Sequence record: DQ006818.1
DNA: 625 nt
DNA from: a phage
Direction: 5' to 3' (one strand)
The translations under genes were made by a program, and so were the position numbers. Of this stretch, positions 1 to 625 are shown in pieces (the stretch's first letter is position 1; each line of letters starts with the position of its first letter). Under the pieces are notes generated by a model that was given only the letters and a program-made list of their open reading frames with translations, was not told where the DNA came from and ran no database searches.

Positions 1-21
1 TTACTGAGTATGAGAGGACAT
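1..21 (+). other. 3' part of the phage 5' untranslated leader upstream of the maturation (A2) gene; the genomic 5' terminus is not in the window
   Basis: Sequence lies immediately upstream of the recognised A2 start codon and carries the ribosome-binding element. In Qbeta-type genomes the A2 start sits roughly 60 nt from the 5' end (from memory), so about 40 nt of leader would be missing. There is no stop codon in the A2 frame within 1-21, so the leader/CDS boundary is set by homology, not by an upstream stop. Confidence 0.6.
13..18 (+). promoter_or_regulatory. Shine-Dalgarno / ribosome-binding site for the A2 gene
   Basis: Purine-rich 'agagga' with GAGG core at 14-17, 4 nt upstream of ATG 22-24 (tgagaggacatATG). 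The spacing is short but plausible for a bacterial or phage initiation site. Confidence 0.6.
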
Positions 22-625
22 ATGCCTAAATTACCGCGTGGTCTGCGTTTCGGAGCCGATAATGAAATTCTTAATGATTTTCAGGAGCTCTGGTTTCCAG
101 ATCTCTCTATCGAATCTTCCGACACGCACCCGTGGTACACACTGAAAGGTCGTGTTTTGAACGCCCATTTAGATGACCGTCTGCCTAATGTAGGCGGTCG
201 CCAGATAAGGCGTACTCCACACCGTGCTACCGTCCCGATTGCCTCTTCAGGCCTTCGTCCGGTAACAACCGTTCAGTATGATCCTACAGCACTGTCGTTC
301 TTATTGAACGCCCGTGTTGATTGGGATTTCGGTAATGGTGATAGTGCGGACCTTGTCATTAATGACTTTTTGTTCCGTACTTTCGCACCTAAGGAGTTCG
401 ATTTCTCGAATTCCTTAGCTCCTCGTTATACCCAGGCCTTCTCCGCTTTTAATGCCAAGTATGGCACTATGATCGGTGAAGGGCTCGAGACTATAAAATA
501 TCTCGGGCTTCTACTGCGCAGACTGCGTGAGGGTTTCCGTGCTGTAAAGCACGGCGATTTACGCGCTCTTCGTAGGGTTATCCAGTCTTACCATAAAGGT
601 AAGTGGAAACCGGCTACTGCTGGAA
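22..625 (+). CDS. A2: Maturation protein A2 (pilus-attachment / RNA-binding / single-gene lysis protein) of a Qbeta-like ssRNA coliphage; N-terminal 201 codons, 3'-partial (continues beyond the window)
   Basis: Manual translation from ATG 22-24 gives 201 sense codons with no stop up to base 624: MPKLPRGLRFGADNEILNDFQELWFPDLSIESSDTHPWYTLKGRVLNAHLDDRLPNVGGRQIRRTPHRATVPIASSGLRPVTTVQYDPTALSFLLNARVDWDFGNGDSADLVINDFLFRTFAPKEFDFSNSLAPRYTQAFSAFNAKYGTMIGEGLETIKYLGLLLRRLREGFRAVKHGDLRALRRVIQSYHKGKWKPATAG. The N-terminus MPKLPRGLRFGADNEILNDFQELWFPDL and most of the rest match my recollection of Qbeta A2 (about 420 aa in full). An SD precedes the start. Identity is from memory, not a computed alignment. 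Confidence 0.92.
   Translation, partial: MPKLPRGLRFGADNEILNDFQELWFPDLSIESSDTHPWYTLKGRVLNAHLDDRLPNVGGRQIRRTPHRATVPIASSGLRPVTTVQYDPTALSFLLNARVDWDFGNGDSADLVINDFLFRTFAPKEFDFSNSLAPRYTQAFSAFNAKYGTMIGEGLETIKYLGLLLRRLREGFRAVKHGDLRALRRVIQSYHKGKWKPATAG

What the first reader, a model, noticed from the sequence alone, without database searches (positions are those of the whole stretch)
1..625. Window is a cDNA copy of the 5' region of a Qbeta-like ssRNA phage genome, not a novel system
The single long ORF translates to a protein I recognise as the Qbeta maturation protein A2. Such phages have RNA genomes, so a DNA sequence implies a cDNA clone, an RNA-virome or metatranscriptome contig, or a laboratory construct; Qbeta is widely used as a lab model, process control and VLP platform. 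This identification accounts for the whole window and argues against a new biological system here.
Basis: partly seen in the sequence, partly recalled or inferred. Interest (0 to 1): 0.5.

Follow-up and report, generated by a model that had tools for sequence, protein, structure and literature searches.

The report
Qbeta-type RNA phage genome fragment
The window is a DNA-letter copy of the first ~15% of the genome of a wild-type strain of the well-known RNA coliphage Qbeta, carrying the start of its maturation/lysis gene A2, so it is ordinary and already explained.

Summary
Window 1-625 is colinear, without gaps, with nt 40-664 of the Qbeta genome. It consists of 21 nt of 5' leader with the Shine-Dalgarno sequence, then an ORF from ATG 22 that runs off the 3' end. 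The ORF encodes the N-terminal 201 of 420 residues of maturation/lysis protein A2 (Pfam Phage_mat-A, E 1e-41; solved A2 structures, E 1e-131, 192/201 identical).

The nearest record is the sewage isolate Qbeta strain BZ1 (96.6% by megablast, 23 differences). The window is sister to BZ1 in 200/200 bootstraps. Laboratory Qbeta is only 92.3-92.6% identical, so a lab strain, spike-in or construct is unlikely; an environmental genogroup III phage is more likely.

Eighteen of the 21 coding differences from BZ1 are synonymous. The RNA is strongly structured. A long-distance helix pairs the A2 ribosome-binding site with a sequence about 400 nt downstream; it is present and conserved, matching the known control of maturation-gene translation.

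No copy was found in plasmids, complete E. coli genomes or 185,579 species-representative genomes. The sample's provenance (RNA or DNA library) could not be determined. Strain-level novelty only.

The parts
1..21 (+). 3' part of the 5' untranslated leader (Qbeta nt 40-60). The first 39 nt of the genome, including the 5'-terminal hairpin, are missing from the window.
   Evidence: Colinear with nt 41-61 of BZ1 and 40-60 of Qbeta AB971354. Two differences from BZ1, at positions 2 and 12.
14..18 (+). Shine-Dalgarno sequence GAGGA of the A2 gene, 3 nt upstream of the ATG.
   Evidence: Read directly from the sequence. Positions 14-17 are invariant in all 13 aligned genomes, including M11 and MX1.
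22..625 (+). A2 maturation/lysis protein gene, codons 1-201 of 420, cut by the window end. It covers the N-terminal beta-region that binds MurA and the 1-180 fragment reported as sufficient for lysis.
   Evidence: Translation; Pfam PF03863, E 1e-41; PDB A2 chains, E 1e-131; annotated A2 CDS in all relatives. Differences from BZ1 are 18 synonymous to 3 non-synonymous, with 17 of 21 in codon position 3. The functional regions are as cited in PMC12856241.
4..18 (+). 5' strand of the long-distance helix that sequesters the A2 ribosome-binding site.
   Evidence: Predicted in the MFE fold of the window and independently by RNAalifold on 13 genomes. Pair counts: 88.7% of cells paired against 34-49% when slid; 4 pairs changed on both sides.
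420..435 (+). 3' strand of the same long-distance helix (UCCUC-G-UUAUACCCAG), lying inside A2 codons 133-138. G425 is bulged, and A7/C432 is a mismatch in this strain.
   Evidence: The unpaired probability of the SD falls from 0.79 (first 142 nt) to 0.03 once the first 440 nt exist.
32..137 (+). Conserved branched stem-loop domain just downstream of the start codon.
   Evidence: MFE fold and consensus fold with several pairs changed on both sides, e.g. columns 37-132 and 87-103.
537..554 (+). Conserved hairpin (7 bp, 4-nt loop) with a compensatory U540-A551 pair. Eight of the nine other Qbeta-clade genomes aligned have C-G there and VK has U-G. A551 causes the replacement R177H.
   Evidence: columns 540-546 with 551-557 (pair 543-554: CG 8, UA 4, UG 1); differences listed.
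107..107 (+). Window-private U-to-C change that gives F29S, the only amino-acid change not seen in any of the 10 other Qbeta-clade genomes.
   Evidence: It breaks one predicted A-U pair (62-107) at a cost of 0.7 kcal/mol and does not change SD accessibility.

Best explanation
The window is a plus-sense DNA-letter copy (cDNA, RNA-virome or metatranscriptome contig) of nt ~40-664 of the genome of a naturally occurring Qbeta strain (Qubevirus durum, F-specific RNA coliphage genogroup III). Its closest known relative is the sewage isolate BZ1. It carries the end of the 5' leader, the A2 ribosome-binding site and the first 201 codons of A2.

By homology to the studied Qbeta protein, A2 is the single-copy virion protein that binds the F-pilus and the genomic RNA. 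It also lyses the host by inhibiting MurA through its N-terminal beta-region.

At the RNA level the segment is densely base-paired. The Shine-Dalgarno region pairs with a complementary stretch about 400 nt downstream, inside the A2 ORF. Ribosomes can therefore load only on nascent plus strands, before that partner has been synthesised, which keeps A2 output low.

Shown here: identity, reading frame, purifying selection, presence and conservation of the helix, and the predicted loss of SD accessibility. Inferred from the literature on Qbeta, and on MS2 for translational control: pilus binding, MurA inhibition and kinetic control of translation.
For: DNA: 96.6% identity to BZ1 and 91.5-94.2% to 18 other complete Qbeta-clade genomes, colinear at genome nt ~40-664. 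The window is sister to BZ1 in 200/200 NJ bootstraps. BZ1 came from sewage (PMC6963950; GenBank country Brazil).

Protein: PF03863, E 1e-41. PDB A2 chains 5VLZ/5VM7/5MNT, E 1e-131, 192/201 identical.

Selection: 18 synonymous against 3 non-synonymous differences from BZ1, and 35 against 11 from lab Qbeta, with most changes in codon position 3.

RNA: MFE -253 kcal/mol, z = -9.5 against shuffles. The SD-sequestering helix 4-18/420-435 is 88.7% paired across 13 genomes, with double changes in M11 and MX1, and RNAalifold recovers it independently. SD unpaired probability falls from 0.79 to 0.03 when the downstream partner is included.

Literature: long-distance interactions that close the maturation-gene RBS are the known control in this phage family (PMC4615214 citing Groeneveld 1995, Poot 1997 and Beekwilder 1996). 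MurA binds the A2 beta-region, residues ~30-120, and fragment 1-180 suffices for lysis (PMC12856241 citing Cui 2017).

Context: no copy in plasmids, complete E. coli genomes or GTDB species genomes.
Against: Nothing contradicts the identification. The limits are these. The window stops at codon 201, so its own downstream genes are unseen. The source sample is unknown, and no identical sequence was found in any collection. The first 39 nt of the genome are absent, so folding of the leader is incomplete. The helix has one A/C mismatch (7/432) in this strain and five others. Kinetic control of A2 translation is taken from the literature and from thermodynamic prediction, not measured. The covariation support rests mainly on one divergent pair of genomes, M11 and MX1, whose best pairing may be in a shifted register.
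Confidence: 0.96

Rival explanations
1. The window comes from laboratory Qbeta: a cDNA plasmid such as an expression clone, a process-control spike-in or a lab-evolved line, rather than an environmental phage.
For: Qbeta is widely used in laboratories, and cDNA plasmids exist (e.g. pBRT7Qbeta, mentioned in PMC10248866). The window is written as DNA.
Against: All lab-derived Qbeta records are only 91.8-92.6% identical (AB971354, AY099114, GQ1539xx, JF7197xx, LC710219, MH1080xx), with 48 differences in 625 nt from AB971354. From my own knowledge, lab-evolved lines differ by only a handful of substitutions across the genome. The window clusters with the sewage isolate BZ1 in 200/200 bootstraps. 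There is no vector sequence at either end and no match in 72,556 plasmids.
Confidence: 0.03
2. It is a DNA-encoded copy of the phage segment, integrated in or carried by a bacterial genome or a DNA mobile element.
For: Only that the sequence was supplied as DNA letters.
Against: No match was found in 5,426 complete E. coli genomes or in plasmids. In 185,579 species-representative genomes, neither a protein-seeded scan nor a scan with a conserved 55-mer found anything. The synonymous-biased substitution pattern and preserved RNA helices indicate a replicating RNA genome, not a decaying insert.
Confidence: 0.005
3. It belongs to a different Qubevirus lineage, either M11/MX1-like or genogroup IV (SP/FI/NL95), rather than the Qbeta clade proper.
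For: All these phages share gene order and an A2-type maturation protein.
Against: M11 and MX1 are only ~63-64% identical over the window and align by BLAST only over 337-623 at 74-75%. No genogroup IV record reached the blastn threshold.
Confidence: 0.005

Closest known systems
Escherichia phage Qbeta strain BZ1 (FJ483844; Qubevirus durum, FRNA genogroup III), nt 41-665
   Same: Colinear and gap-free, 96.3-96.6% nucleotide identity, 198/201 A2 residues identical. Same leader, SD and start codon. Shares the BZ1-type changes V62I, V69A, A89T, N110D, V133A, Y172F, R177H and N192K relative to lab Qbeta.
   Different: There are 23 nucleotide differences: 2 in the leader, 18 synonymous and 3 non-synonymous. 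The amino-acid differences are S29 in the window against F in BZ1, N105 against D, and A198 against T. Seven bases are private to the window.
Laboratory Qbeta (e.g. AB971354 Anc(P1); A2 structures 5VLZ, 5VM7, 5MNT)
   Same: Same species, same gene and same RNA helices. A2 residues 1-201 are 95.5% identical to the chains whose virion-bound and MurA-bound structures are solved.
   Different: There are 48 nucleotide differences (7.7%) and 9 amino-acid differences. The SD helix has A-U at 7/432 in lab Qbeta but an A/C mismatch here, and A-U at 12/427 in lab Qbeta but G-U here.
MS2-type (Emesvirus) control of maturation-gene translation by a long-distance interaction closing the RBS
   Same: The principle is the same: the SD of the maturation gene is base-paired in the equilibrium fold, so only nascent strands are translated (PMC4615214).
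   Different: In MS2 the complementary sequence lies upstream in a 5'-UTR cloverleaf, and folding is delayed by a metastable hairpin. Here, as in Qbeta, the partner lies ~400 nt downstream inside the ORF, so the delay is set by the time needed to synthesise it (the interpretation follows Beekwilder 1996 as cited).

Membership tests
Qubevirus durum (Qbeta clade) genome, 5' region | High nucleotide identity, colinear with the 5' ~660 nt of reference genomes | tested here: met
   91.5-96.6% identity over window 3-623 to 19 complete genomes at nt ~40-664, with no gaps. Sister to BZ1 in 200/200 bootstraps.
Qubevirus durum (Qbeta clade) genome, 5' region | Gene order A2, coat, A1 read-through, replicase, with no separate lysis gene | not testable with these tools
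   The window ends at A2 codon 201 and no longer source contig was found. The order holds in every relative examined and in the related metagenome contig L004.
Qubevirus durum (Qbeta clade) genome, 5' region | Genome is single-stranded RNA with no DNA stage | not testable with these tools
   Sample provenance is unknown. Indirect support comes from the absence of any copy in plasmids, E. coli genomes and GTDB genomes, and from strong conserved RNA structure.
Phage maturation protein (Pfam PF03863, Phage_mat-A) | Score above the Pfam gathering threshold | tested here: met
   143.6 bits against a cut-off of 25, E 1.1e-41, residues 35-201 on profile positions 19-216 of 446.
A2-type maturation protein that doubles as the lysis protein (MurA inhibitor) | N-terminal beta-region (residues ~30-120 contact MurA; fragment 1-180 is sufficient for lysis) homologous to Qbeta A2 | tested here: met
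   Residues 1-201 are 192/201 identical to the A2 chain of the MurA complex 5VM7. The region boundaries are from PMC12856241 citing Cui 2017.
A2-type maturation protein that doubles as the lysis protein (MurA inhibitor) | Actual inhibition of MurA and host lysis | not testable with these tools
   This needs an experiment. S29, private to the window, lies next to the reported contact region.
Fiersviridae translational control of the maturation gene by RBS-sequestering long-distance pairing | SD region base-paired to a distant complementary sequence, with the pairing conserved across relatives | tested here: met
   A 15-bp helix 4-18/420-435 is 88.7% paired in 13 genomes against 34-49% when slid, with 4 pairs changed on both sides. 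RNAalifold recovers it. SD unpaired probability falls from 0.79 to 0.03.
Rfam RNA families | Match to any curated covariance model | tested here: not met
   No match at E <= 1 on either strand. I take this to mean that Rfam has no family for this part of the Qbeta genome.

The most novel reading that the evidence does not exclude
The fragment comes from a previously unsequenced field lineage of Qbeta. Its single private amino-acid change, F29S, lies at the edge of the MurA-contacting beta-region of A2 and, from my memory of Bernhardt 2001 and Reed 2013 (not verifiable here), next to the por site L28P. Under this reading the change alters lysis timing or MurA and pilus binding, rather than being a neutral quasispecies variant or a sequencing error.
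Probability: 0.06. Interest if true: 0.2.

Novelty: already known. Interest (0 to 1): 0.06.

Why it matters
It matters little beyond bookkeeping. The window can be labelled as Qbeta-clade (FRNA genogroup III) phage sequence and removed from any list of candidate new systems. It has two minor uses. First, it adds a BZ1-like strain to the small set of natural Qbeta genomes used for water-quality source tracking. Second, natural variation in it gives a further data point supporting the SD-sequestering long-distance helix and the hairpin at 537-554, where an amino-acid replacement (R177H) is coupled to a synonymous change that restores base pairing.

Tried and rejected
1. Source contig. I searched IMG/VR and JGI metagenomes with a protein-seeded scan, IMG/VR with a window-specific 40-mer, and the 15-billion-protein collection for the exact 201-aa product. 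The sequence itself was not found. The only related contig was Ga0179939_1057709, the same contig as IMGVR_UViG_3300019216_000421 (91% aa identity).

2. The search for homologous proteins returned no hit at E <= 1e-20. This is surprising for a textbook protein and suggests the collection lacks RNA-phage proteins. I did not repeat it.

3. Two weak metagenome hits, L006 and L007 (29-30% identity), sit in 853-919 aa DNA-encoded proteins that share only a 'YDWDFGNGD' motif, which I recognise as the PKD-domain WDFGDG-type motif. I rejected them as seed artefacts.

4. Rfam found nothing.

5. I tested whether the private U107C (F29S) acts at the RNA level. It costs 0.7 kcal/mol and does not change SD or AUG accessibility, so I rejected that idea.

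6. I tried to read Cui 2017, Reed 2012 and Reed 2013 for the MurA interface and the por mutations. None is held, so por positions are quoted from memory only.

7. Minus-strand or alternative-frame genes: no ORF is longer than 45 aa.

Full report
OBSERVATION. The window has one long open reading frame on the + strand. It starts at ATG 22 and runs off the 3' end (201 codons). No other ORF in any frame exceeds 45 aa. The product matches Pfam PF03863 (Phage_mat-A) at 143.6 bits against a gathering score of 25. It aligns residue for residue (1-201 on 1-201) with the Qbeta A2 chains of PDB entries 5VLZ, 5VM7, 7LHD and 5MNT, with E 3e-131 and 9 substitutions.

IDENTITY AT DNA LEVEL. Megablast and blastn against 50,697 phage records found only Qbeta-type phages. 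Nineteen complete genomes cover window 3-623 without gaps at 91.5-96.6% identity, always at genome nt ~40-664 under the annotated A2 gene. Twelve partial records cover 242-623.
- Best hit: Qbeta strain BZ1 (FJ483844, Brazil; 96.6%).
- Next: HL4-9 (94.2%) and TW18 (92.9%).
- Laboratory Qbeta records: 91.8-92.6%.
- M11 and MX1: matched only over 337-623 at 74-75%, and ~64% identical over the whole window in a global alignment.

An NJ tree of the 625-nt region places the window as sister to BZ1 in 200 of 200 bootstraps. BZ1 was isolated from sewage (PMC6963950, Table 1). All complete relatives have the canonical order A2, coat, A1 read-through, replicase, and so does a related 2.9-kb metagenome contig.

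SIGNS OF A LIVING GENOME.
- Against BZ1 there are 23 differences: 2 in the leader, 18 synonymous and 3 non-synonymous. Seventeen of the 21 coding differences are in codon position 3, and 20 of the 23 are transitions.
- Against lab Qbeta there are 48 differences: 2 in the leader, 35 synonymous and 11 non-synonymous sites.
- Seven bases are private to the window among the 11 Qbeta-clade sequences.
- In the consensus fold, four of them (156, 183, 511, 546) fall in loops or unpaired stretches, or keep a pair as G-U. Positions 2 and 624 lie outside its helices. Only U107C breaks a predicted pair.
- U107C is also the only private amino-acid change, F29S. Position 29 is F in all other Qbeta-clade genomes but R in M11 and I in MX1, so it is not a strictly conserved site.

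RNA LEVEL. The + strand folds to -253 kcal/mol, 9.5 sd below dinucleotide shuffles. The complement is also well folded (z = -8.5), as expected for a replicating RNA whose minus strand is likewise single-stranded.

The MFE structure pairs the leader and Shine-Dalgarno region (window 4-18) with 420-435, inside A2 codons 133-138. I tested this helix on an alignment of 13 genomes (A1).
- 88.7% of cells form standard pairs, against 34-49% when the 3' strand is slid by 1-3 columns.
- Four pairs are changed on both sides, all in M11 and MX1.
- None of 500 shuffles reached the observed covariation score.
- RNAalifold recovered pairs 8-18/423-434 (alignment columns) without being told.

Partition-function folding of growing 5' segments gives an SD unpaired probability of 0.79 for the first 142 nt, 0.38 for 330 nt and 0.03 once 440 nt are present. 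This agrees with the established picture for this phage family. The maturation-gene RBS is closed by a long-distance interaction in the finished RNA, so only nascent plus strands are translated. In the Qbeta group the complementary partner is displaced downstream (PMC4615214, citing Groeneveld 1995, Poot 1997 and Beekwilder 1996).

Three caveats apply. The first 39 nt of the genome are missing from the window. The covariation comes from one divergent pair of genomes, whose optimal register may differ. The kinetics are inferred, not measured.

PROTEIN FUNCTION (by homology, not tested). A2 is the single-copy virion protein that binds the F-pilus and the genomic RNA. It also causes lysis by binding MurA. 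The MurA contacts lie mostly in residues 30-120 of the N-terminal beta-region, and fragment 1-180 is reported as the shortest lytic fragment (PMC12856241 citing Cui 2017 and Reed 2012; also PMC10610835). The window therefore encodes the whole lysis-competent part at 95.5% identity to the structurally characterised protein.

RIVALS.
- Laboratory strain or construct. This is unlikely given 7.4-7.7% divergence from every lab-derived record, no vector sequence and no plasmid match.
- DNA-encoded copy in a bacterium. There is no match in 5,426 complete E. coli genomes. Nor is there one in 185,579 species-representative genomes, either by protein-seeded scan or by a conserved 55-mer.
- Another Qubevirus lineage. 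Identity and the tree exclude this.

WHAT COULD NOT BE DONE. The exact source was not found in any collection, and the large protein search returned nothing. The library type (RNA or DNA) and the window's own downstream genes therefore remain inferred. Three key papers on the A2-MurA interface and por mutants are not held.

VERDICT. This is a fragment of a known RNA phage, a BZ1-like field strain of Qbeta, with its known gene and known style of translational control. It is novel only at strain level (3.4-3.7% from the nearest record). Interest is low.

Noticed in passing
window 107 (A2 codon 29): U-to-C gives F29S, the only amino-acid change private to the window among 11 Qbeta-clade genomes. 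It lies at the edge of the reported MurA-contact region (residues 30-120) and, from memory, next to the por site L28P. It breaks one predicted A-U pair but costs only 0.7 kcal/mol.
   Followed up: partly
window 540 and 551 (hairpin 537-543 / 548-554): Compensatory double change. C540-G551 in eight of the nine other Qbeta-clade genomes aligned becomes U540-A551 in the window, BZ1, M11 and MX1; VK has the U-G intermediate. A551 causes R177H while U540 is synonymous, so an amino-acid replacement is coupled to keeping an RNA stem.
   Followed up: partly
window 7/432 and 12/427, 13/426 (SD-sequestering helix): Natural variation inside the regulatory helix. A7/C432 is a mismatch in the window and five other strains. 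12/427 is G-U here and A-U in lab Qbeta. BZ1 has an A/C mismatch at 13/426 that the window lacks. Strains may therefore differ slightly in how tightly the A2 start is closed.
   Followed up: partly
window 2 and 624: Two of the seven window-private bases sit at the second position from each end of the window, symmetrically. All ten other Qbeta-clade genomes have C and T there. This could be coincidence or an end-of-contig or read artefact.
   Followed up: no
L006 4612-4815; L007 711-1130: The metagenome scan returned two large DNA-encoded proteins (919 and 853 aa) that share only the motif YDWDFGNGD with A2 residues 99-107. It looks like the PKD-domain-type WDFG(D/N)G motif, so these are seed artefacts, not maturation-protein relatives.
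   Followed up: partly
L004 = L005 (IMGVR_UViG_3300019216_000421 = Ga0179939_1057709), 1-2890: This is a 2.9-kb contig held in both IMG/VR and JGI. It is another Qbeta-clade genome fragment (91% aa identity, nearest BR12 and VK in the tree) with a full 420-aa A2 ORF followed by ORFs at the coat and A1 read-through positions.
   Followed up: partly
whole window (protein query): The 5.8-billion-cluster protein search found no hit at E <= 1e-20 for the N-terminal half of Qbeta A2, a textbook protein. The exact 201-aa product is also absent. The collection seems to lack RNA-phage proteins.
   Followed up: no
window 1-625, minus strand: The complementary strand also folds far better than shuffles (z = -8.5). 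This is consistent with the minus strand of a levivirus being a structured single-stranded replication template.
   Followed up: no
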